Shown here in pieces: positions 3,764 through 55,053 of a stretch of DNA of 64,000 nt. A model generated the notes under the pieces. The model had not been told where the DNA came from, ran no database searches, and saw nothing but the letters and a program-made list of their open reading frames with translations. Source of the DNA: Gammaproteobacteria bacterium (GTDB lineage: Bacteria > Pseudomonadota > Gammaproteobacteria > Eutrophobiales > Eutrophobiaceae); NCBI GenBank assembly GCA_963422205.2, contig CAXMWX010000007.1, positions 128,001-192,000 of the forward strand, in the 5' to 3' direction. The translations under genes and the position numbers were made by a program. Each line of letters begins with the position of its first letter. The first letter of the stretch is position 1.

Positions 3764-3853
3764 TGGCGGAGAGGGTGGGATTCGAACCCACGAAGGGCTT
3801 GCACCCTTGCCGGTTTTCAAGACCGGTGCATTCAACCGCTCTGCCACCTCTCC
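3764..3853 (-). tRNA. tRNA-Ser (anticodon TGA)
   Basis: Reverse complement GGAGAGGTGGCAGAGCGGTTGAATGCACCGGTCTTGAAAACCGG...GGTTCGAATCCCACCCTCTCCGCCA; long variable arm, encoded CCA. Confidence 0.97.
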
Positions 3854-17871: not shown

Positions 17872-19022
17872 TGGCAATACGCGTTGAACAGGTCGATAAA
17901 CTCAGCCGGATCGATCGTCAACAGTGGCAACAACTGAACACCGCCAATAACCCGTTCCTGCATTACGACTTTCTGCGGGGTCTGGAAGAGCATCACTGTC
18001 TGGATGAACATGGCTGGCAGCCCTGCCATCTCACGTTTAAATCGGCCGACACATTGCTGGCCGTATTGCCCTTGTATTATCGCCATGACTCCTACGGTGA
18101 GTTCGTCTTTGATTGGTCCTGGGCAGATGCTTATGAGCGGGCGGGCGGCAGGTATTATCCGAAGCTGGTCTCCGCCATTCCATTCACGCCGGTATGCGGG
18201 CCACGCCTGTTGCTGGCTGATCACTGCCAGAGAAAGCAGGCGGTCCGCAACACCATGCTGGCGGCCATTCGGCAGATCCTGCAAGCAGGCGATCTCTCAT
18301 CCTGGCATTGCCTGTTTACAGCACCCGCTGATCAGGCCAGCTTCCGACAGCAGAATGTACCGCTACGCAAAACCATCCAGTTTCACTGGCATAACCGCAG
18401 CTTTACCAGCTTTGATGATTTTCTGAACAGCCTGACAGCCAAAAGGCGCAAACAGATAAGACGTGAACGGCGCCGGATCGACGAGCAGAATATTCACATA
18501 GAACGCTTGATGGGTGCAGATATCAGCGAGCGACAATGGGCGATCTTTTATGAATTTTATTGCGCCACGTTCTACAGGCGCTGGGGCCGGCCCCGGTTGA
18601 CCCTGGATTTTTTCAAGAGCTTGAGCGACAACCTGCCCGAACACACCCTGCTGATTCTGGCCAAGCAGCAAACCGCCTATATCGCCGGTGCGTTTTCCAT
18701 GCTGGATGATGACACGCTCTACGGCAGACACTGGGGCTGTAATCGGCAGGTGGATAATCTGCATTTCGAATTATGCTATTATCAGACCATTGAGTATTGT
18801 ATTGAGCAGGGGTTATCCCGGATGGATGCAGGTATTCAGGGAGAGCACAAGATCAAACGCGGTTTTCAACCGGTCGCCACGGTTTCCGGACACCTGATCA
18901 TGCACCCGACATTTGATCGTGCGATCAGAAATTTCCTGCGAGAAGAAGAACAGGATATCGATCGTTATCTGGCCGCCATGCAGGCGCACTCACCTTATAA
19001 AACCCAGGCTGATCAGCCATGA
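17871..19022 (+). CDS. GNAT/FemAB-like protein (DUF482)
   Basis: SYGEFVFDWSWADA, YYPKLVSAIPFTP, LYGRHWG, LHFELCYYQ, QGEHK. Confidence 0.92.
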   Translation: MAIRVEQVDKLSRIDRQQWQQLNTANNPFLHYDFLRGLEEHHCLDEHGWQPCHLTFKSADTLLAVLPLYYRHDSYGEFVFDWSWADAYERAGGRYYPKLVSAIPFTPVCGPRLLLADHCQRKQAVRNTMLAAIRQILQAGDLSSWHCLFTAPADQASFRQQNVPLRKTIQFHWHNRSFTSFDDFLNSLTAKRRKQIRRERRRIDEQNIHIERLMGADISERQWAIFYEFYCATFYRRWGRPRLTLDFFKSLSDNLPEHTLLILAKQQTAYIAGAFSMLDDDTLYGRHWGCNRQVDNLHFELCYYQTIEYCIEQGLSRMDAGIQGEHKIKRGFQPVATVSGHLIMHPTFDRAIRNFLREEEQDIDRYLAAMQAHSPYKTQADQP

Positions 19023-32131: not shown

Positions 32132-34529
32132 ATGAAAACAGCACACCGTACCACCCGAATCACCCCTCTAGCCTGGCTTCTGCTCACCTGCCTCTTAGGC
32201 ACCACACCGCCCTGGCCGCGTCTTTTAACGTCACCACCGATACGGTGAGAACCACGGAATACACCTTGGATGCGAACGGCGAGACCGGCACCATCGCCGC
32301 CGGGGTGACCCTAAGCGGTGCGGCCAGTGGTAATTTCCTGGAATTGGTGGTTCTTAATAGTGGCACTGACCTCAGCCTGGATATCAGTGGCACCCTGCGG
32401 CTGACGGGCAGCACTTCTGGTCGCAGTGCGCTCTGGGCGCAAGCTGATGGTACGAGCACCAATCCGAACACCGTCCGCATTCGCAGCACTGGCCTGTTGG
32501 ATTTGCAAAGCACCGGCGACGATTCCGCAGCGGTGTTTATAGAGGGCGCTCATACCAGGCTGAACCTGGATATGGGCGGGCGCATCCGCAGCACCCATAA
32601 CAATGCCGTGCTAACTGACACTGACACCACCATCAATGTGGCGGGCACCATCACCACCGAGGGCCGCGGGGGTCATCCAACGGCAACAGCGCTATCTCGA
32701 CTTTTAGCGATGTCAATAATGTCACTATCCACCTTATGGCCCGCGGCCTGCTGGAAACCAACACCTGTCTGCGGGTGGACACCACCGCCTGCCCCGCCGG
32801 GGCCAACCCCTCCAACGGCCACGGTATAAACGTTTCCGGGGAAAACACCAATATCACCCTAGGCACGGCGGGGACTGGCGTCAGCTTTGATACCACGACC
32901 GCCAGCAACAACGCCCGCATTATCACCCAGGGCCCTGACTCCCACGGCATCCGCCTTTTTGCCGACGGGAACGCGGCGACAACCAATATCGGCCGCATCA
33001 CCACCTACGCCGACAGCCTGATCAGTACCACCGGCGCTGGCGCCCACGGCATCTTGATTGACAATACCATTGGTGCCACCAATACCGCCCCAGTGGCGCT
33101 GGATTTAGGCGGGCGTATCGAGGTCACCGGTGCCAATGCGGTGGGCCTGCAACTTAGTGACGCCAACCTCGCCCTGGCCGATGTGGATGGCGATACAACC
33201 AACGGCGGCGAAATCCGCATTACCGGCGGGATCAGCACCGACGGTATCGCCGCCGCCATTCGCGATAGCAGTAACACCAGCATTCGGCTGCTGCTCAATG
33301 GCGCTGCTATCACCGGCGATATTGATCTCGGCGCCGGGGCGGATAGGCTGGAGATGACCGGCAGCACCACCCTGAGGGGCGATATCGCTGCCGGTGCAGG
33401 CAATGATACGCTGACACTGACCGGCACCACCTTCATCGGCCTTTTCGTCCCGGTCTTAGGCGGTGCCATCACCGAGGACATCAACATGGGCGCGGGCAAT
33501 GATGAGATCACCTTCAACAGCACCGCCACCAGTTACATCGGCGACATTGACCTCGATGCGGGGGATGACACGCTCACCCTGAATGCCAACGTGGATATCG
33601 ATTTCACCACTGGCGGCATTGATCTGGGCACCGGCGGTGATACCCTGAACCTGAACAGCTTTGTCCTGCCTGCCGGGGCCTTGCCCAGCTTCGGCGATGA
33701 CGATGATACGCTGGTGCTGAACGGCAGCGCCAGCCTCGGCAGCAGCGTCCCGCAAACCAGCGGATCGGCGGTCATCACCCGCCAGACCATCAACATGGGC
33801 GATGGCGATGACAGGGTCGAATTTAACAGCACGGAAATCAGCTACATCGAGGACATCATTCTGGGCGATGGTGACGATAGCCTCAGACTGGGTGTGGGCC
33901 TGAATCTGCCCACTGGCAGGGTGCTGGACGGCGGCAGCCGTCCCGATGAACTGAGAGGGTATGATGTCAATGCCACCTGGGCAGTGACCGGGGCGGCGAC
34001 GGGCAACACCTATAACCCGGCGGGACCCGGCCAGACCATCGCCTTCACCAGTTTTGGGTTGCTGACCGGCGGGGCGATGGCGGATACCTTTAATGTCAGC
34101 GCCGACCACACGGGGAGTCTCTTCGGCAACGGTGGGGCGGATATCTTCAACCTCACCGGCGGCACACTCTCAGGCGGCTTGGTCGGTCGCCTGGGTAATG
34201 ATACCTTCACCCTCAGCGGCAGCGGCAGCGCCATCCTCCAGGGCAATATCAACGGCGGGGCGGGCGATGATGAGCTTGAACTGACGGGCGCCGCCGCCAT
34301 CGGCACGGCCAACACCAGTGGCAGCATCGACATGGGCACGGGCAATGATGCCGTCACCCTTAACAGCAGCGCCACCAGTTACCTGTTCAACTTTGATCTC
34401 GGTGCGGGGGATGATTCCCTCGTCTTAAATGCGAACCTGAATCTGACCGCCGGTGCCACCTCACCGGCGGGGCGGACACGGATACCCTCAACGGCTATGC
34501 GGCCGATGCCACCTGGACGCTGGCCGCCG
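32132..34529 (+). pseudogene. Large beta-helical/RTX-like adhesin or autotransporter passenger, frameshifted and truncated at the prophage left end
   Basis: Signal-like MKTAHRTTRITPLAWLLLTCLLG; Gly/Thr/Asn-rich repeats IDLGAGADRL, INMGAGNDEI, INGGAGDDEL; at least three frame changes; no C-terminal beta-barrel. Confidence 0.7.
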
Positions 34530-34584
34530 CAGACTAGAATCTTGCGAAAGATGGAGTGCTATTGATGCGAAAGATGGTTGTGTA
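34530..34584 (+). repeat. Left terminal inverted repeat of the prophage
   Basis: CAGACTAGAATCTTGCGAAAGATGGAGTGCTATTGATGCGAAAGATGGTTGTGTA matches the reverse complement of 54513-54566; contains TGCGAAAGATGG twice. Confidence 0.8.
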
Positions 34585-34699
34585 TTTTTTTCTGGGATTT
34601 TCAAAATCCAATGCATGTTGACGGAATCAAACGGGATTTTGCGGAATCTGGTGGAATTTTTTGCTTGGTTTTTGCGGGTGTCTCGGCTATGATTTAACC

Positions 34700-34850
34700 A
34701 TTGCCAAGGCAAAATCTGCGTGCGAGTGCTGCGGGGGTAGCCCACCCCTTAAAAGTTCTAAACCGAGCCAGTTCGCTGGTGAGGGTAAATCGGAGGTGTA
34801 TACCGCAGCCCTCCGCTTGGCATGCGAGAGGCTTCGGGCGGCCCTCTCAC
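34700..34850 (-). ncRNA. Candidate structured (pseudoknotted) RNA immediately downstream of the MuF-nuclease gene
   Basis: Complementary segments 34702-08/34816-22, 34791-96/34810-15, 34728-34/34803-09, and hairpin 34768-79; G-U pairs favour the minus strand. Confidence 0.5.
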
Positions 34851-36025
34851 TTATCCCAATTTCTTAGTAGCTTACCCTTTGCCAACTCACTATTCAGTTG
34901 TTTTATAGATTTGCGGTGAAACGTGGTCAAGTAGTTCTCTTGCCTGTCCTCTGTTCGTTTAACCACCACCTTATACAAGCGGCCATGAACGGCATAAAAA
35001 TACAGGTTCTGTTCGCCTGCCTGTATCACCTTACCCTTAGCAATAACCTCGGGTATCAACTGATACTCATCCAGCTTTAATTCGGGATGGTTCCGCTTCT
35101 GCTTTACCAATGTCGCCTCACTGAGCAGCACCGCTTTTTGCTTCGCCTTTAGCCGTCCCTTCAAGTTCTCATCCAGGGCGGCAATGACAAAGCGGCTATC
35201 GGGTGTTGGTTGCTTGAACCAGTCGGTGAACACCTGGCTCTTGAGCAGCGATGAGACCGTACCTAATGCCAAATCACTCTGGCTGGCGTTGATCTTGTTG
35301 CGGATGAGACTGTAAGACTGCTGTAACCGGTGTTTGCCGATGTGGTAGTTGAAAGCCGGATGTACGCCCTGGGTCACGCTTTCCACCTCGCCCGTGCGCT
35401 GGTTGACCCATTCCCTGGTCTGCTCTGGCGGTGCATCGGTCATATACTTGCTGGTACCTTTCAGTCGGTCATATTCGGCCTGGCTGACCGGTCTGACCCG
35501 GCACTTGCAGCCCCAGCCATTAGGTGGGTAGCGGGTCTCCCAGAACGGATGGTCAACGGGCAGGATGACCCCCGCCCAAGCCACATGTTCATCGCGGTGC
35601 GTCCGGCTTGGCCCCAGCTCATAGAGCAGATACGCATAGCTTGGCTTATTCCGCTCAATCCGTCCCCATTGCCCTGCTGCCCGGGCGGTACGCAGATTGG
35701 TCTGGTAGATGACCTTCAAGCGCCGGGGGCTGCCGAGTTGTACGTCTTTTATCTCCCCGGTCAGCGGGTCATGCATCTGTTGTCGCCCCCACCAGCCTTT
35801 CTTTTGTAACAGTGGGGTCAGTTCTTTTGCAAACTGGCGCAGAGTCTTGCCCTCGGCCTCTGCCACCACCACTGCCTGATAGATGTTCTCCAGCACGTCA
35901 AGGCGCATGGCTTTGGCCACAGTGAAATGGATATGATGCTCTTCCTGCCAAACATCACGGTAATCAAAGCCGGGCTTGAGCTTCTTACGCTTAAGAAAGT
36001 CTAGCGCCGAGGTGGCCGGGGTCAC
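34847..36025 (-). CDS. Phage head morphogenesis protein MuF (gp30) with C-terminal PBECR2-like nuclease domain
   Basis: FTVAKAMRLDVL, GSPRRLKVIYQTNLRTARAAGQW, HPFWETRYPPNGWGCKCRV; C-terminal KQKRNHPELKLDEY...YKVVVK..ENYLTTFHR. Confidence 0.88.
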   Translation of the reverse strand: MTPATSALDFLKRKKLKPGFDYRDVWQEEHHIHFTVAKAMRLDVLENIYQAVVVAEAEGKTLRQFAKELTPLLQKKGWWGRQQMHDPLTGEIKDVQLGSPRRLKVIYQTNLRTARAAGQWGRIERNKPSYAYLLYELGPSRTHRDEHVAWAGVILPVDHPFWETRYPPNGWGCKCRVRPVSQAEYDRLKGTSKYMTDAPPEQTREWVNQRTGEVESVTQGVHPAFNYHIGKHRLQQSYSLIRNKINASQSDLALGTVSSLLKSQVFTDWFKQPTPDSRFVIAALDENLKGRLKAKQKAVLLSEATLVKQKRNHPELKLDEYQLIPEVIAKGKVIQAGEQNLYFYAVHGRLYKVVVKRTEDRQENYLTTFHRKSIKQLNSELAKGKLLRNWDK

Positions 36026-37584
36026 CGGGTATCTCCTGACACATCCCCCAGGGCCCGGGCGATGAAGGCCGCCTCGGTCAGGCCATCGACCAGGGCTGTA
36101 TCATCCTCTGTGCTGAGGTCAATCAGTGCTGCCTTGACCTCATCCAGGCGGCTCCCGTCTGCTATCATTTTCTGAAGCACCTGCTGCACCTCGGATATGG
36201 GCTTCATCTGTGACTGCCAGTCATCGTCCGTCAACGCATCGGTCAGGTCATCCAGGGTATCGGGGACATCGGGCGCTTGCCGGTTCAAGGCCAGTGGCTG
36301 TATAGGGTTAGCTGCTGTAGTGCCACCGGCCGGCGCACTGAGCAATGCCTCCCCGTCTTTCGGATCAGGCAGGCCAGACTTGTCGCGGATAACCGAGGCC
36401 GAGACCTTCAAGCCCAGTGGCACCAGCTTCTCCAGAGAGTCCGCCAGCAGCTTCAGGTCTTCGGCCTCCTCCACATGCAGCACCAGGCGCGGGTAGCTCG
36501 CCTGCGGCCCGAAGTTCAAATCGACAAAGGGTTTCATCAGATCGCGGTTCAGCGTCACCTCAAGTTGCCTTGCATCGGACTTTAGAATGTCCAGACGCAC
36601 TTCGTTATGGATATTGGCCTGGGATTGGGAGCTGCCATCATCGGTGGTCATGGTCTGACCGAGTACGGCCTTGCTGGTTTGCCTGTCCAGCCACTCGGCC
36701 AGGGTTCTAAAGAGCTCGGCGGCGCCTGAGACATTACCCACCTGCTCAAACTCAATCCGCAGGGTATCGGGCAGCACCGCCGCGGCATCGCTGCCGAGGT
36801 TGGCGACTGCCGCTTTCAGCAACTGGATATGCTCTTCTTTTGCCCCTTGGCTGTAACGTCCCAAGCGCAGCGGCATCCCGAACACCTCACAAAAAGCCAG
36901 CCAGTCTTTCACTGTATAGGCTTTGCACATGTACGTTGTAGCGACCAGACGGGCGAGACCCCCACGCAAGGGGATGCCGCTTTTTAATCGTGGTCGGTGA
37001 ATGATGAACTTGTACGGCGGCAGGGGCTTACCATTGACCACATCAGACTCATCATAAAGCCGCAACTCATAGGGGTTATCCGGGGGATAGATAAAGTAGC
37101 GCGGGTCGCGCCAGTGGTAGGCTGTGGGTTGCCATTGCTTGGCGGAGGTCTCCCAGTCAATCTCAATGGCCGCATAGCCCTTGCCGAGGGCATCTAAGGC
37201 ATCATCCTGCAAGTCACCGAACGCGGGGGCGGCGATCAATGCCCGGCAGGCCTCAGCCAGCTTGACATCCTGCCTGTCATCCGAGGCCGCCTCAATGGTG
37301 GGAGCCAGTCCAGAGACGGCGCGCTTGCGGGTGGCCAGTACACTGGCATAGTGCGGCTCACGCTCCTCCATCTCCTCGGCCAGGGTCAGGTAATCATGGG
37401 CTTGCCCCTCAGCCGCGGCCTGCATCAGTCTAGCGAGGCGCAGCGGGTTGATGCTGCCAGCCACATGCGCCACCAGCCAGGGCTGGCGAATGCTGGTTAA
37501 GGACGTGGTGACGACCTCATCGGTGAGTGCCTCCTTGACGATAGGCTGACCATCGGGGCCGAGCAGGCGGGGTGTTATCGCCAT
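36022..37584 (-). CDS. Mu-like portal protein (gp29, DUF935)
   Basis: AEEMEERE.HY..VL.TRKRAV, DALGKGYA, WLAFCEVFGMPLRLGRY, SKAVLGQTMTTD. Confidence 0.92.
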   Translation of the reverse strand: MAITPRLLGPDGQPIVKEALTDEVVTTSLTSIRQPWLVAHVAGSINPLRLARLMQAAAEGQAHDYLTLAEEMEEREPHYASVLATRKRAVSGLAPTIEAASDDRQDVKLAEACRALIAAPAFGDLQDDALDALGKGYAAIEIDWETSAKQWQPTAYHWRDPRYFIYPPDNPYELRLYDESDVVNGKPLPPYKFIIHRPRLKSGIPLRGGLARLVATTYMCKAYTVKDWLAFCEVFGMPLRLGRYSQGAKEEHIQLLKAAVANLGSDAAAVLPDTLRIEFEQVGNVSGAAELFRTLAEWLDRQTSKAVLGQTMTTDDGSSQSQANIHNEVRLDILKSDARQLEVTLNRDLMKPFVDLNFGPQASYPRLVLHVEEAEDLKLLADSLEKLVPLGLKVSASVIRDKSGLPDPKDGEALLSAPAGGTTAANPIQPLALNRQAPDVPDTLDDLTDALTDDDWQSQMKPISEVQQVLQKMIADGSRLDEVKAALIDLSTEDDTALVDGLTEAAFIARALGDVSGDTR

Positions 37585-37604
37585 CAGTACACGTCCTCAC
37601 TATA

Positions 37605-37676
37605 CAGAAGACAGAAGTCAGAAGACAGAGGACAGAATGTATGCTCTGTCTTCCGTTCTCCATCTTCCGTCCTCTG
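37605..37676. repeat. Heptamer-periodic inverted repeat 1 (terminase/portal junction)
   Basis: (CAGARGA)n arm, short loop, (TCYTCYG)n arm. Confidence 0.85.
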
Positions 37677-37678
37677 CT

Positions 37679-39089
37679 TCACAGCAGCCCCCGTTGTGCC
37701 TTGATGGCATAACGATTGCCGTAAAAATCATCCTCATCGTCCGCATCGTAATAGGGCGAGACCGCCTCATAAGCAAAATGCTCGGCCGGCACCTGGGCTG
37801 CTGCTGTCGCCAAGGCCAGCGCCCAGAACCTATCCGCATGACCATCAGTGCCGGAACGCTCGGCCACCAGACGCGGGGTGCCGGTGATGCTGGTCTCAGC
37901 CTTGATGCTGTGCAGATCATGACGCAGCGCCTCATCGACCGGGATACGCAAGCGCCCATCTTCCAACACCTCACGCAGCGCGGTGGCCACATCCAGACGC
38001 CTGGGCGCACTTAAGATAATCCCCTCCACCCGGTACTTACCATGCGCCTCCTGTAATTGCTCCACCACCGCCTCACCCATGCCGGTTTGATCTACCGCGA
38101 TGCGGCTTGGCCGGTAGTCCTCCACCAGCCGTGCCACAATGCTGTGCTGCTCGGCAAAGGGAATGCCCTGACGGGCAATAAGTTCACGTACCCACAGCAC
38201 ATCCCCCACCCGTTCCAGCACCAGCGCCACCCACAAGTCCTGCCGGCGGGCGACATCAATGCCGATGTAGGTCAGGCCACCGGCGAAGTGCTCCGGCACC
38301 CCGGCCTGTTGGTGCTCGGCGGCGCGTAGCCATTGCCAGGCTAACCAGGCGCCACCGGTTTGTTTAGGTGTGCAGAACAACTCCTCTTCGGCCATCTCCC
38401 GAGTGGGGTATTTATTGATCTCACGGGCGCGCCACTCCTCGGCATAGTTATCATGCCAAGGGGCTTGTTTGACACTGGCAATGCGCCGGGCCAAGCCTTC
38501 GGCAATAGCATCATCTAAGGTAATGCGATGCAGTGCGTACGCGTGCTTGCCTTCACGCACATCACAGACCAGGCGGTTAAAGGCACTGTCCTCGCCTTTG
38601 TGCGTTGAGATGATGCGTACCTTGCCACCCCCATTGCGTTACCGCAATGGCCGCTTGTAGCAGATCATCCAGCTCATCACAAAACGCCGCCTCATCGATA
38701 ATGACAATATCGCCGGGTTTCCCTTTGGAGCGCAACACCCGGGGGTTCGATGGCAGGGCCTGAATGAACTTGCCCGAGTCAAAACGGATGCGAAAGCGCA
38801 ATACCTGGCTTGCCTCATCGCTGATTAGGGTTTCCTCGACCTGTGATGCGGCCAGATTAAAGCGTATCGCCCACTCAGCACAATCACGGATATAGGTCTC
38901 GGTCATGTCCTTGTTATAGGACATATAAAAGATATTGCCTTTACCCTCGGCGGCATAGACCACCCGCTCGGCGGCATCACCCCAGGATAAACCAACGCGC
39001 CGCGACTTCTCACAGATGGCAATCTCGGCTTGCTCTTTATTCCAGCGCAACTGATAGGCCAGCAACAGGGGATAACCATCCTTATACAT
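37679..39089 (-). pseudogene. Mu-like terminase large subunit (gp28), frameshift near 38630
   Basis: EKSRRVGLSW Walker A, VIIDEAAF Walker B, GIDVARRQD, VDQTGMG, GHADRFWALALA; one extra base in a G run. Confidence 0.88.
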
Positions 39090-39190
39090 GGGCGCTTTCC
39101 AGAGCGGCGCGAATGGCCGCTGCGGTATCCTGACTGACACCGGCCTTCTTAACTTGTGTCTCGGCCTTCTCGGCCATTGCCACTGCCTTG
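39082..39190 (-). pseudogene. 3' remnant of Mu gp27 (DUF3486)-like gene
   Basis: AEKAETQVKKAGVSQDTAAAIRAAL; stop overlaps the terminase start. Confidence 0.6.
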
Positions 39191-39694
39191 GGGCTGAACA
39201 CCGAGGCAACTGAGACGCAGATTATTGAGCGTATCAACGCACTCAAAGCAGAGAAACAAACCGCACTCAATTCCGCACAGAGTCCCGACCCAGCCAGGTT
39301 TGTACCGATAGAGACGCACCAGTTGGCCTTGAACCGGGCGGAGAGTGCCGAGGCCACGCTTACTAAGAACAAGGAGGCGGCCTTAACCGCCGAAGGTCAG
39401 GCGCTGGTGGAGCAGTCGATTACCGATGGCAAGATGGCGCCTGCCAATAAAGATCATTACCTGGCTCTGTGTCGGGACGAGGCCGGGCTTGAGACCGTCA
39501 AGCAACTGATGGCCGCCGCCCCCGAAGATACTGACGGAGGACAACGGGTACGGGTGGCGCGCCTGGCAAACCTGAGACGGCGCTCAATACCGAGGAGTCT
39601 CAGGTGGCCCGCCTTGCTGGGTCTGTCGGATAAAGCCATGACCGAGGCCAAGGCCGCGCACACCGCACATACAACCACAGGAGCTAACCGATGA
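39171..39694 (+). pseudogene. 3' half of Mu gpI protease/scaffold gene (5' end missing, frameshifts near the end)
   Basis: AIATALGL..ATETQI..INALK, PDPARFVP, ALVEQSITDGKMAPA; directly upstream of gpT. Confidence 0.75.
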
Positions 39695-40592
39695 TTATCA
39701 CACCGCAGGCAATCACGGCCCTTTATCACAGGCTTTAACAAAATCTTTCAGGATGCGCTCGGCAGTGCCGAGACCCAATGGCAGCAGGTGGCCACGCAGG
39801 TGCCATCCAGCACCAAGTCCAACACCTACGGCTGGCTGGGCAAGTGGCCAGGCTTTCGGGAATGGGTCGGCGAGCGGGTGTTCAAGAACTTGAAAGCCCA
39901 CAGCTATCAGGTCACGAATAAAAAATACGAGTCCTCGGTGGAGGTCGGGCGTGATGAGATTGAGGATGATCAGATCGGCATCTATAGCCCGATGGTGATG
40001 GAGATGGGTCAGGAGGCGGCCAGGTTTCCCGATGAGTTGGTCTTTGGTTTGCTGGGCGGCGGGTTTCACGACCGCTTGCTATGACGGGCAGAACTTCTTT
40101 GATGCCGAGCATCCGGTGTATCCGAATGCCGATGGCACCGGTACGGCGGTGCTCATCTCCAACATGCAGGCGGGCAGCGAGACGCCCTGGTTTCTGCTGG
40201 ACACGTCCCGTGCCTTGAAGCCGCTGATCTATCAACTCCGCCGGGCGCCGGCGTTCAAGGCCATGACGGACACGGCGGATGAGGGCGTGTTCCTGCGCGA
40301 TGCCTATCGTTACGGGGCGGATTTGCGCTGTAATGCGGGCTTTGGCTTCTGGCAGATGGCTTATGGTTCAAAAGCGGATTTAACCCTGGAGAACTATGTG
40401 GCGGCCCGTACCGCGATGATGGGCTTTACTGGTGATGGCGATAAGAAACTCAAAGTTAGTCCTAAGTTACTGGTCGTACCGCCCTCGTTGGAAGAGAAGG
40501 CATTGAAGATACTGAAAGCCGAGCTCATCGACGGTGGCAACAGCAACGTCTACCGCAACACCGCCGAGGTCTTGTGTTGCCCGTATCTGTGA
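39691..40592 (+). pseudogene. Mu-like major capsid protein gpT, two frameshifts (~39722, ~40065)
   Basis: MIITPQAI.., VPSSTKSNTYGWLGKWPGFREWVGER, CYDGQNFFDAEHPV, WFLLDTSRALKPLIYQ, GFGFWQMAYGS. Confidence 0.9.
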
Positions 40593-54512: not shown

Positions 54513-54566
54513 TGCACAGCCATCTTTCGCATCAATGGCGAATTTTTTTCGCAAGCCTTTAGTCTG
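54513..54566 (-). repeat. Right terminal inverted repeat of the prophage
   Basis: Reverse complement CAGACTAAAGGCTTGCGAAAAAAATTCGCCATTGATGCGAAAGATGGCTGTGCA. Confidence 0.8.
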
Positions 54567-54611
54567 TCAGGTTGGAGTATGCCTATTAGGTGGGGTGGGA
54601 TGACGCAGGGG

Positions 54612-54885
54612 CGACTGCTCAGGATGGCAGTAACCCGTCATTCTGAGCGTAGCGAAGAATCTATGGTTCTGTGTGATAGATCCTTCGTCACTTTGTTCCT
54701 CAGGATGACGAGAGGGAGGGCAACTGCTCAGGATGTGACAAGCAGCACGTCATTCTGAGCGAACGACTACAGGGATGTAGGAGGTAGAGAATGTCAGGAA
54801 CACATTATCGAGGTAGAAAACGTCGGGAACAGGTTTTCGAGCGAAGAATCTATGTGCTACTGCAATAGAGCCTTACGGTCGCTCG
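54612..54885. repeat. Cluster of REP/CIR-like GTCATTCTGAGC...GCGAAGAATCT palindromes, one with a nested mini-element (~54764-54840)
   Basis: GTCATTCTGAGCG at ~54637 and ~54749; CTCAGGATG partners; insert CGACTACAGGGATGTAG... Confidence 0.75.
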
Positions 54886-55053
54886 AAAATAGGCCAGGGA
54901 TGGTTGGGGATACGTGATGCTTATAGCGGGGGGTGCTGATCAGAGGGTTCTTGTTTGTATGTGCCTTGGCTGCCGGGTCATTGCAGTGACTGCGGCTGCA
55001 CGCCATGCGGTATGTATGCTAGTATCAGCGTCCCGACCAGGTGAGGCAGAGCG

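What the first reader, a model, noticed from the sequence alone, without database searches (positions are those of the whole stretch)
34700..35250. MuF-PBECR nuclease followed by a compact pseudoknotted RNA instead of an immunity gene: candidate toxin/RNA module
Established: MuF proteins with C-terminal toxin domains (here resembling PBECR2, a Barnase/EndoU/ColicinE5-D/RelE-like RNase fold) are usually followed by a small immunity ORF. Seen: no such ORF follows. The ~150 nt after the stop codon (minus strand) are instead densely self-complementary. There is a hairpin over the stop (GUGAGAGG/CCUCUCGC); a closing stem UGCCAAG/CUUGGCA (34816-22 with 34702-08); and a stem CGGAGG/CCUCCG whose loop GCUGCGG pairs perfectly with CCGCAGC 75 nt downstream, forming a pseudoknot (34803-09 with 34728-34). 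A further stem UUUACCCU/GGGGUGGG encloses CCAG-CGAA-CUGG. The G-U pairs work only on the gene's own strand. Inference: this is a cis-encoded structured RNA that could act as antitoxin, substrate or cofactor of the nuclease (type III toxin-antitoxin-like logic on a virion protein).
Basis: partly seen in the sequence, partly recalled or inferred. Interest (0 to 1): 0.82.

Follow-up and report, generated by a model that had tools for sequence, protein, structure and literature searches.

The report
Conserved structured RNA beside phage MuF gene
Right after a Mu-type phage head gene lies a conserved, folded non-coding RNA-like element, a local variant of a widespread unnamed phage RNA motif, but nothing yet shows that it is an antidote to the gene's nuclease-like domain.

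Summary
As a single sequence the fold is no better than shuffles (z -0.41). Comparison rescues it. The stretch from the MuF stop to the prophage end (34852-34532, minus strand) recurs in 4 copies in 3 of 126 family genomes, at 71-77% identity. Compensatory changes occur in the stop hairpin, the closing stem, CGRAGG/CCUYCG and a small hairpin.

The gene is an ordinary Mu gp30-type F protein with a MuF-C/PBECR-family C-domain, so an immunity gene was never expected. In relatives the next gene is gpG or gpI.

Distant MuF-C genes carry a different, strongly covarying pseudoknotted motif ("type A") at the same spot. It has 35 distinct copies, 94.8% of cells paired against 75.4% shuffled, and no Rfam match. 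The window element ("type B") shares its position and topology but does not match its model.

Wobble counts, folding energies, a conserved TANNNT box and the pseudoknot mildly favour the strand opposite MuF. This suggests a small convergent RNA gene.

No evidence for an antitoxin role was found; 12 of 35 type A copies have no detectable MuF-C gene upstream. The prophage itself is defective.

The parts
34847..36025 (-). Mu gp30-type F (MuF) gene, 392 aa, GTG start, TGA stop at 34849-34847
   Evidence: ORF, translation. Pfam Phage_Mu_F scores 54.2 bits (cut-off 29.6) over residues 47-177. phrog_220 'minor head protein and DNA pilot' gives E 3.5e-86 over residues 4-360.
34850..35245 (-). C-terminal MuF-C / PBECR-family domain (last 132 aa)
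   Evidence: The window protein gives sub-threshold PBECR1, PBECR3 and LPD13 hits. Of 14 aligned homologues, 5 hit PBECR3 (best 2e-5) and 2 hit MuF_C (4.5e-4). The His in ..KRNHPEL.. and the Thr in K.T are invariant, and S/T precedes the aromatic residue in 14 of 14. The AF2 model has pLDDT 96.3. Foldseek top hits are weak: a CDI toxin, BrnT, HigB2 and RelE (E 0.03-0.2).
34824..34850 (.). H1: 8-bp hairpin straddling the MuF stop codon (GUGAGAGG / CCUCUCGC on the gene strand)
   Evidence: All 4 copies have a hairpin here with different stem letters: GAGAGG/CCUCUC, GAGGGGG/CCCCCUC, GGGGGAG/CUCCCCC and GGGUUG/CAGCCC. No copy has a U-run after it on the gene strand. On the opposite strand a U-run follows in 2 of 4 copies, G007 and G029b.
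34702..34822 (.). Type B core. Closing stem H2 (34816-34822 with 34702-34708) encloses H3 (34810-34815 with 34791-34796), the conserved blocks CGAUUUACCC / GGUUUAGAAC / AGGGGUGG, a variable hairpin (34768-34779), the GGGG..CCCC hairpin and H7 (34709-34719).
   Evidence: H2 has 3 pairs changed on both sides, H3 has 1 and H7 has 1. The core is conserved in 4 copies.
34728..34809 (.). Pseudoknot partners: 34803-34809 (loop of H3) with 34728-34734
   Evidence: It is perfect in the window. On the opposite strand it pairs 7/7 in G000, G029a and G029b through G-U pairs. It is not formed in G007. No change on both sides was seen.
34665..34693 (+). Promoter-like TTGGTT-17 nt-TATGAT on the strand opposite MuF; the -10-like box ends 8 nt before H2
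   Evidence: Read. A TANNNT box stands at this place in 4 of 4 type B copies: TATGAT, TATAGT, TATAAT, TATCAT. It scores 8 of 12, below the threshold of the consensus scan, which reported no site. This is inference, not shown.
34532..34700 (.). A+T-rich distal part of the conserved end region. It carries short repeats and the terminal inverted repeat, with CCATCTTTCGCA at 34543-34554 and 34566-34577.
   Evidence: Homology of the flanking repeat-protein gene to its paralogues stops at about 34525.
54520..54566 (+). The other terminal inverted repeat of the defective prophage
   Evidence: blastn gives 79.6% over 54 nt in inverted orientation. The sequence is, and the exact CCATCTTTCGCA is. The flanks differ (CGGCG against TCAGG), so there is no 5-bp target duplication.
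36022..39209 (-). Portal (Portal_Mu, 36022-37584) and large terminase in two ORFs (37679-38560 and 38577-39209), upstream of MuF on the same strand

Best explanation
Window 34852-34532 is the conserved terminal non-coding region of a defective Mu-like prophage. Its inner ~150 nt (34702-34850) encode a structured RNA, 'type B'. A 7-bp closing stem is stacked on a hairpin whose loop can pair with a distant single strand (a pseudoknot). There are also a variable hairpin, two small hairpins, and an outer hairpin over the MuF stop codon.

Type B is the lineage-specific counterpart of a much commoner, strongly covarying pseudoknotted motif, 'type A'. Type A has no Rfam family. It occupies the same position, within -40 to +120 nt of the end of the MuF-C coding region, in other Mu-like phages, and it has the same topology.

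Most likely mechanism (inferred, not shown): the element is a small RNA gene of its own, about 150-165 nt. It would be transcribed convergently to MuF from a weak sigma-70-like promoter (TTGGTT-17-TATGAT, 34665-34693, plus strand). It would start at the closing stem and end at the stop-codon hairpin. Its fold, not antisense pairing, would be the working part, acting as a protein-binding or catalytic RNA.

Whether its partner is the MuF-C RNase-fold domain is open. In this window the prophage is broken, so the copy may be a relic.
For: Conservation: there are 4 copies in 3 of 126 genomes of the family, at 71-77% identity, all starting at or near the end of a MuF-C coding remnant.

Covariation in type B: 5 of 31 pairs change on both sides against 1.7 in shuffles (1 of 500 reach this). 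94.2% of cells are paired, against 45-51% when partners are slid.

Type A: 17 copies, then 35 distinct copies. 94.8% of cells are paired against 75.4% shuffled. 16 of 26 pairs change on both sides, in 158 cells, and 0 of 500 shuffles reach this. The pseudoknot is 100% paired with one compensatory change (A6 was fitted to the model, which leans towards the structure).

Position: the MuF-C domain ends just upstream in 22 of 35 distinct type A loci. The next genes are gpG or gpI.

Strand:
- Type A has 34 A.C cells against 12 G.U cells on the gene strand.
- The opposite strand is more stable in 21 of 33 copies and the gene strand in 11.
- A TANNNT box ends 4-14 nt upstream of the closing stem on the opposite strand in 21 of 32 loci, against 6 of 32 in the reversed control, and in 4 of 4 type B copies.
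- The type B pseudoknot is 7/7 in 3 of 4 copies only on the opposite strand.
- Type B MFE, gene strand/opposite strand: -54.0/-61.1, -58.7/-59.0 and -38.3/-51.6 kcal/mol.
- Solo copies in G029 have no MuF gene to transcribe them, yet keep every helix.

No Rfam family matches either type.
Against: Type B rests on only four copies from three related genomes, and at least three of them lie in degraded contexts.

The single-sequence fold is not better than shuffles.

Strand signals conflict:
- UUUACCCU/GGGGUGGG pairs 8/8 only on the gene strand.
- The closing stem of G007 pairs 7/7 on the gene strand and 5/7 on the opposite strand.
- The window's promoter-like site scores 8 of 12, and the scan reported no promoter or terminator.
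- The U-tract after H1 is present in only 2 of 4 copies.
- No consistent U-tract follows type A on either strand.

The wobble and energy tests ignore the relatedness of the sequences. The type A model does not score the window element (best 5.6 bits, E 0.23, with filters off). Kinship of the two types therefore rests on position and topology alone. There are no expression data.
Confidence: 0.5

Rival explanations
1. The element is made on the MuF strand as the 3' UTR of the F mRNA, and it is the antidote, substrate or cofactor of the MuF-C RNase-fold domain. This would be a toxin/RNA pair on a virion protein.
For: The element begins at the stop codon in all contexts where MuF-C is present. MuF-C keeps the His and S/T that define active PBECR domains (PMC5512222 section 19). 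That paper predicts RNA binding or RNase activity for MuF-C. UUUACCCU/GGGGUGGG pairs only on this strand. 22 of 35 type A copies follow a MuF-C gene.
Against: 12 of 35 type A copies have no detectable MuF-C upstream; 10 ORFs flanking five of them gave terminase small subunit and exonuclease matches or none. Solo type B copies exist. Wobble and energy asymmetry favour the other strand. There is no tandem repeat array as in type III systems. No binding, cleavage or toxicity data exist.
Confidence: 0.2
2. It is a self-cleaving ribozyme or another RNA-processing element of the late operon, on either strand. It would be comparable to the hammerhead, twister, pistol and hatchet ribozymes that cluster near genes of Mu-like phages.
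For: A passage in PMC10085705 says that the strongest gene associations of bacterial hammerhead and twister ribozymes are with genes of Mu-like phages, and that mining such intergenic regions gave pistol, hatchet and twister-sister. Type A is compact, pseudoknotted and has long invariant single strands. It occurs in varied phage contexts.
Against: No known ribozyme family matches. No cleavage site can be inferred from the sequence. The primary papers (Roth 2014, Weinberg 2015) were not held, so I could not check whether this motif was seen and discarded there.
Confidence: 0.12
3. It works as DNA. It would be part of the transposable prophage's end, serving as a transposase or host-factor binding site or a packaging site. 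The RNA-like pairing would then be incidental.
For: In all type B copies the element lies within about 320 nt of a terminal inverted repeat or of its remnant. The distal half is A+T-rich with short direct repeats.
Against: Compensatory changes in four helices are not expected of protein-binding DNA. Type A sits mid-genome between F and G or I, not at an end.
Confidence: 0.08
4. It is a decaying relic with no present function in this genome, whatever it once did.
For: The prophage is defective. The terminase lies in two ORFs. The major head gene keeps only profile positions 115-289 of 289. gpG, gpI and the start of the head gene are missing between MuF and the rest. There is no target duplication. 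The only Mu-type transposase match in the genome is on another contig.
Against: The MuF ORF is intact, and every helix is fully paired in the window copy: 7/7, 6/6, 8/8, 3/3 and 7/7.
Confidence: 0.05

Closest known systems
Phage Mu gp30 (F) with its C-terminal MuF-C / PBECR domain (Iyer et al. 2017, PMC5512222; section 19 read)
   Same: It has the N-terminal Phage_Mu_F domain plus a C-terminal BECR-fold domain. It follows terminase and portal. It has a conserved His in the N-terminal helix region and a conserved S/T in a late strand.
   Different: The window protein does not reach the Pfam cut-offs for any PBECR model. According to that paper, Mu's own domain is predicted to be inactive; here the putative catalytic residues are kept. 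No cultured phage in the 50,697-record collection is a close relative; there were 4 weak tblastn hits.
MuF polymorphic toxin-immunity modules of temperate phages (recalled; no paper read here)
   Same: A MuF N-domain is fused to a nuclease-like C-domain.
   Different: No downstream immunity ORF exists here or in relatives. The C-domain is the ancestral MuF-C, not a swapped-in toxin cassette. The next genes are gpG or gpI.
Type III toxin-antitoxin systems such as ToxIN (recalled)
   Same: The idea of an RNase-fold protein paired with a structured RNA encoded beside it.
   Different: In those systems the RNA is a tandem repeat array upstream of the toxin, on the same strand. Here there is a single-copy multi-helix fold downstream, probably on the other strand.
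Self-cleaving ribozymes enriched near genes of Mu-like phages (PMC10085705, passage in the introduction)
   Same: Small conserved pseudoknotted RNAs in intergenic regions of Mu-like prophages, also found in other phage contexts, with unknown biological role.
   Different: No sequence or structure match to any Rfam ribozyme family. Cleavage is untested.
'Type A' motif defined here (model R1, alignments A4 and A6)
   Same: It stands at the same place relative to the MuF-C stop codon. The closing stem abuts a hairpin whose loop forms a pseudoknot with a distant single strand. A variable hairpin lies between. A TANNNT box stands just outside the closing stem on the opposite strand.
   Different: R1 does not detect the window element. 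Type B has extra helices and a separate hairpin over the stop. It lies next to the prophage end instead of next to gpG or gpI.

Membership tests
Pfam Phage_Mu_F (PF04233) | Profile match above the curated cut-off | tested here: met
   54.2 bits against 29.6, residues 47-177.
PBECR / MuF-C clade (PF18809-PF18814, PF18819) | Profile match above the curated cut-off | tested here: not met
   For the window protein: PBECR1 14.2-14.6 bits (cut-off 27.6), PBECR3 13.6-14 bits (cut-off 30), and no PBECR2 or MuF_C hit. Among the 14 aligned C-domains (the window's and 13 relatives), PBECR3 hits 5 (best E 2e-5), MuF_C hits 2 and PBECR2 hits 1.
PBECR / MuF-C clade | [quoted passage not shown] | tested here: inconclusive
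   The AF2 model has pLDDT 96.3. The best Foldseek hits are RNase toxins: CDI 7m5f_C at E 0.029, BrnT 3u97 at E 0.033 (TM 0.68 on the target), HigB2 and RelE. None reaches E 0.001.
PBECR / MuF-C clade | [quoted passage not shown] | tested here: met
   His is invariant in 14 of 14, Thr of K.T is invariant, and S/T precedes the aromatic residue in 14 of 14. Assignment to the named secondary-structure elements is my reading of the model.
MuF toxin-immunity module | A small immunity gene directly downstream | tested here: not met
   There is no conserved ORF. In 9 of 10 relatives the next gene is gpG or gpI.
Type III toxin-antitoxin | A tandem array of short RNA repeats upstream of the toxin gene on the same strand | tested here: not met
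   No tandem family in 34400-34900. The element lies downstream of the gene.
Any Rfam 15 family | Covariance-model match | tested here: not met
   Window at gathering score: only a tRNA at 3767-3853. Window 34300-35100 at E up to 10: no match. Type A loci at E up to 1: only an unrelated cobalamin riboswitch.
   Best score 5.6 bits, E 0.23, with filters off. That match covers only the stop hairpin. There is no hit in the G000, G007 or G029 genomes.
Intrinsic terminator | G+C-rich hairpin followed by a U-run | tested here: not met
   The scan found 0 sites on either strand. By eye, a U-run follows H1 on the opposite strand in 2 of 4 copies.
Mu-type transposable prophage end | Terminal inverted repeats with repeated transposase-site-like words | tested here: met
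   34530-34582 against 54515-54566, inverted, 79.6%. CCATCTTTCGCA occurs 3 times in the window against 0.44 expected.
Mu-type transposable prophage end | 5-bp target duplication and a transposase gene in the element | tested here: not met
   The flanks differ. The only DDE_2 match in the genome lies on contig C14, not in the window's contig.

The most novel reading that the evidence does not exclude
Mu-like phages carry a dedicated structured RNA whose partner is the virion-borne MuF-C RNase-fold domain. Type A is the widespread form; type B occurs here. The RNA could hold the RNase in check in the producing cell, be cut by it, or be packaged with it. That would be a toxin/RNA pair built into a head protein, and it would explain the long-unexplained MuF-C domain. 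An equally novel alternative is that type A is a new class of self-cleaving ribozyme.
Probability: 0.17. Interest if true: 0.85.

Novelty: new variant of a known kind. Interest (0 to 1): 0.6.

Why it matters
The C-terminal domain of Mu F-type head proteins has been predicted to bind or cut RNA (PMC5512222). No RNA partner is named in the passages I read, nor in the four papers that hold the term PBECR.

A covarying pseudoknotted RNA is parked at the stop codon of such genes in dozens of uncultured Mu-like phages. This gives a concrete candidate partner to test.

Independently of that, type A is a well-supported RNA motif without an Rfam family. It lies in a neighbourhood already known to collect self-cleaving ribozymes of unknown role.

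For this window itself the stakes are lower. The copy sits in a broken prophage, and only four relatives are known.

Tried and rejected
- **RNA evidence:** no RNA holder was listed for window 34300-36100. There are two DNA or unknown-type runs from one study.
- **tRNA/tmRNA:** none in the region.
- **Element against 50,697 phage records:** blastn gave no match. The type A motif also gave no match.
- **Core pattern GGTTTAGAACN5AGGGGTGG:** 0 hits in viral contigs. There were 6 hits in metagenome contigs, all without extended similarity, so they are chance. With up to 2 mismatches in the family, only the 4 known copies match exactly.
- **Other type B patterns in viral contigs:** AGGGGTGGN4CCCCGCARCA gave 1 hit inside coding sequence. 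ACCTYCGATTTACCCY gave 15 hits, none with the element.
- **Terminal-repeat word CATCTTTCGCAAGATTCT:** 8 viral contigs share only 19-21 nt. I did not follow them up.
- **Second type A scan:** 31 of 67 loci searched had no model match at E 1e-5. Those I read look like chance or coding hits, except L125, which is cut by the contig end.
- **Read-through or frameshift idea:** 15 of 32 type A loci have all three frames open across the motif because of G+C content, so the test is uninformative.
- **Alternative helix GGCAGG/CC.GUGUC in type A:** it never covaries and is broken where it varies.
- **One row (G029b)** was truncated by my own regular expression and is ignored.
- **Papers not held:** Weinberg 2015 and Roth 2014. 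PMC11662646 and PMC13502914 turned out to be irrelevant.
- **Supplements** were not consulted. The supplementary motif lists of PMC5737381 could bear on whether type A was seen before.
Full report
**What is there**

The minus strand carries, in order, a large terminase in two ORFs, a Mu-type portal and a 392-aa MuF gene (34847-36025). The MuF stop codon is followed by 281 nt without a conserved ORF. Beyond that lies the 3' end of a convergent 609-aa repeat-protein ORF (32736-34565, plus strand), which has no Pfam match.

As a single sequence, however, the region folds no better than dinucleotide shuffles. The gene strand gives z -0.41 and the other strand z -1.11. No tRNA, tmRNA or Rfam family matches, even at E up to 10.

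**The gene**

The N-terminal half is Phage_Mu_F (54.2 bits). phrog_220 covers residues 4-360, so the C-terminal domain is a usual part of such proteins.

Alone, the last 132-147 aa give only sub-threshold PBECR1, PBECR3 and LPD13 hits. I aligned the window's C-domain with 13 homologous C-domains, 14 in all. Among these 14:
- PBECR3 hits 5 (best 2e-5), MuF_C hits 2 and PBECR2 hits 1.
- One His and one Thr are invariant, and an S/T is present in 14 of 14.
- The AlphaFold model is confident (pLDDT 96.3).
- Its best PDB neighbours are RNase toxins (a CDI toxin, BrnT, HigB2, RelE), but only weakly so (E 0.03-0.2).

Iyer et al. 2017 (PMC5512222; passages and section 19 read) state that Mu gp30 itself ends in a PBECR domain, which they call MuF-C. 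They predict it to be inactive and RNA-binding in Mu, and an active RNase in orthologues. This gene is therefore an ordinary gp30-type F protein, not a MuF carrying a swapped-in toxin. An immunity gene was never to be expected.

In ten relatives tested, the next gene is Phage_tail_S (gpG) in 6, Mu-like_Pro (gpI) in 3, and unknown in 1.

**Context in the window**

The prophage is broken:
- The major head gene (40032-40592, plus strand) keeps only profile positions 115-289 of 289.
- gp36, baseplate, sheath, tube and tape-measure genes follow it on the plus strand.
- The terminase-portal-MuF block points the other way.
- gpG, gpI and the start of the head gene are missing.

Window 34530-34582 and 54515-54566 are inverted repeats (79.6% over 54 nt). 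They hold three exact copies of CCATCTTTCGCA, against 0.44 expected. Similarity of the repeat-protein gene to its paralogues stops at about 34525. I read 34532 and 54566 as the ends of a transposable prophage. The flanks give no 5-bp duplication. The only Mu-type DDE_2 transposase match in the genome lies on another contig.

**The element is conserved**

The stretch from the stop codon to the end (34852-34566, plus 34553-34523) recurs as follows:
- at 77% identity in G029 (copy a);
- at 71% identity in G029 (copy b);
- at 74% identity in G007.

That makes 4 copies in 3 of 126 genomes of the family, which here equals the order.

Copy a is preceded by a remnant ORF that ends like the window's MuF. 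It lies between two host genes. Copy b lies about 600 nt from a CRISPR-like repeat array. No prophage protein of the window matches within 10 kb of either G029 copy. In G007 a MuF-C fragment precedes the element in the same orientation. Beyond the terminus, another phage end with different repeats abuts it.

**Covariation in the four copies ('type B')**

| Helix | Versions seen |
|---|---|
| Closing stem | CCAAG/CUUGG, CCGGG/CCCGG, CCGAG/CCCGG (one mismatch), CUGAG/UUUAG |
| CGRAGG/CCUYCG | changes on both sides between G000 and G029 |
| Small hairpin GCA..UGC | becomes AUA..UGU in G007 |
| Stop hairpin | four different stems |

Counted formally, 5 of 31 pairs change on both sides against 1.7 in shuffles (1 of 500 reach this). 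94.2% of cells are paired, against 45-51% when partners are slid by one to three columns. With four related sequences this is suggestive, not proof.

**A second, much better supported motif at the same place ('type A')**

I searched 400 genomes of the class with the C-domain. Besides G000 itself, five had a match; the best three, G222, G054 and G348, were read. A SAR324 MAG carries a stand-alone C-domain ORF. Behind all four stop codons stands the same motif of about 110 nt.

Two pattern scans of IMG/VR and a covariance model (R1) gave 36 matches, 35 of them distinct. The structure has these parts:
- a closing stem;
- a hairpin GGYGGGG..CCCCRC, whose loop CUGCC pairs with a downstream GGCAG;
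- a variable hairpin framed by GCGCUCC..GUGCUAC;
- long invariant single strands.

On the first 17 copies, 94.5% of cells pair against 77.6% in shuffles, and 14 pairs change on both sides (0 of 500 shuffles reach this). On all 35, 94.8% pair against 75.4%, with 16 pairs and 158 cells changed on both sides (0 of 500). That second alignment was fitted to the model. The pseudoknot pairs in 100% of cells, with one compensatory change.

No Rfam family matches. No record of the cultured-phage collection matches. R1 does not detect the window element (best 5.6 bits with filters off), and it finds nothing in G000, G007 or G029.

Type B therefore shares with type A its place and its topology: a closing stem abutting a hairpin whose loop forms a pseudoknot with a distant single strand. 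Detectable sequence kinship is lacking.

**Is the motif tied to MuF-C?**

A C-domain ends between -40 and +120 nt upstream in 22 of 35 distinct type A loci. One more has it 369 nt upstream. Twelve have no hit, and some of those have little upstream sequence. Ten ORFs flanking five of these loci gave small-terminase and exonuclease matches or none. The link is strong but not obligatory.

**Which strand?**

Evidence for the strand opposite MuF:
- Type A helices hold 34 A.C cells against 12 G.U cells on the MuF strand. This includes a double change, seen in four sequences, that pairs only on the other strand.
- The opposite strand is more stable in 21 of 33 copies and the MuF strand in 11 (Wilcoxon p 0.002-0.005, relatedness ignored).
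- A TANNNT box ends 4-14 nt before the closing stem on the opposite strand in 21 of 32 loci, against 6 of 32 in the reversed control.
- In type B this box is TATGAT, TATAGT, TATAAT and TATCAT, in 4 of 4 copies.
- The type B pseudoknot is kept 7/7 in three copies only on the opposite strand.
- The opposite strand folds as well or better in the three usable type B copies.
- H1 is followed by a U-run on the opposite strand in two copies.

Evidence against:
- One 8-bp helix with G-U pairs exists only on the MuF strand.
- G007's closing stem prefers the MuF strand.
- The window's promoter-like site scores 8 of 12, and the consensus scan found nothing.

I put the opposite strand at roughly 55-60%.

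**Mechanism**

*Shown:* a conserved, covarying, pseudoknotted non-coding element at the 3' end of MuF-C genes.

*Inferred:* it is a small RNA gene, convergent with MuF, whose fold is the working part.

*Open:* its partner. Candidates are the MuF-C domain, self-cleavage, or a host factor. On MuF-C, RNA binding or cleavage is predicted in PMC5512222. On self-cleavage, Mu-like phage genes are the strongest known neighbours of bacterial hammerhead and twister ribozymes, according to a passage in PMC10085705. Nothing supports neutralisation of a toxin.

**Novelty**

No Rfam family matches either type. My literature searches found no description: PBECR; MuF + structured RNA + phage; Mu-like prophage + sRNA; Mu-like + RNA motif + covariation; self-cleaving ribozyme + Mu-like + hatchet. 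The two primary ribozyme papers and all supplements could not be read, so prior sighting of type A is not excluded.

Noticed in passing
window 34532-54566: A defective, rearranged Mu-like prophage of about 20 kb. The terminase lies in two ORFs. The major head gene lacks its first about 114 profile positions. The head block is inverted relative to the tail block. Terminal inverted repeats are present but there is no target duplication. No Mu-type transposase lies in the window; the only DDE_2 match in the genome is on contig C14.
   Followed up: partly
window 32736-34565 (+): A 609-aa Gly/Asp/Thr-rich repeat protein without any Pfam or PHROG match. Its 3' part is repeated many times in the genome (contigs C3, C8, C9, C11). 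The gene appears to be cut at about 34525 by the prophage end.
   Followed up: partly
L007 2340-3044 (G029): Translated frames show a short unit repeating in all three frames, like a CRISPR array. It lies about 600 nt from the second G029 copy of the element. The array type was judged by eye only.
   Followed up: no
L023 17960-18170 (G007): A second kind of phage-end-like sequence, with three to four TCATTTTGCGACA repeats, abuts the terminus of the type B copy tail to tail. An inverted duplicate MuF-C fragment lies at 18571-18841.
   Followed up: no
window 54570-54900: Repeated units just outside the right prophage end (ctgctcaggatg ... gtcattctgagcg ... gaagaatctatg), looking like REP-type intergenic repeats.
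   Followed up: no
L103 57-7745: A 2563-aa open frame, possibly a polyvalent protein, ends about 700 nt upstream of a type A motif that has no detectable MuF-C gene beside it.
   Followed up: no
L048 7171-7583: An IMG/VR Mu-like phage with a more distant MuF-C (26% identity over the aligned C-domain). It has about 400 nt without an obvious gene before gpI, including a perfect 9-bp stem GACGGCGUG/CACGCCGUC. It matches neither type A nor type B.
   Followed up: no
G222 contig C78 84919-85026 (L165): A second type A copy in one genome (82.8 bits). Its context was not examined.
   Followed up: no
L070 297-513 (-): A cobalamin riboswitch (115 bits) near the G348 prophage. It is unrelated to the finding.
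   Followed up: no
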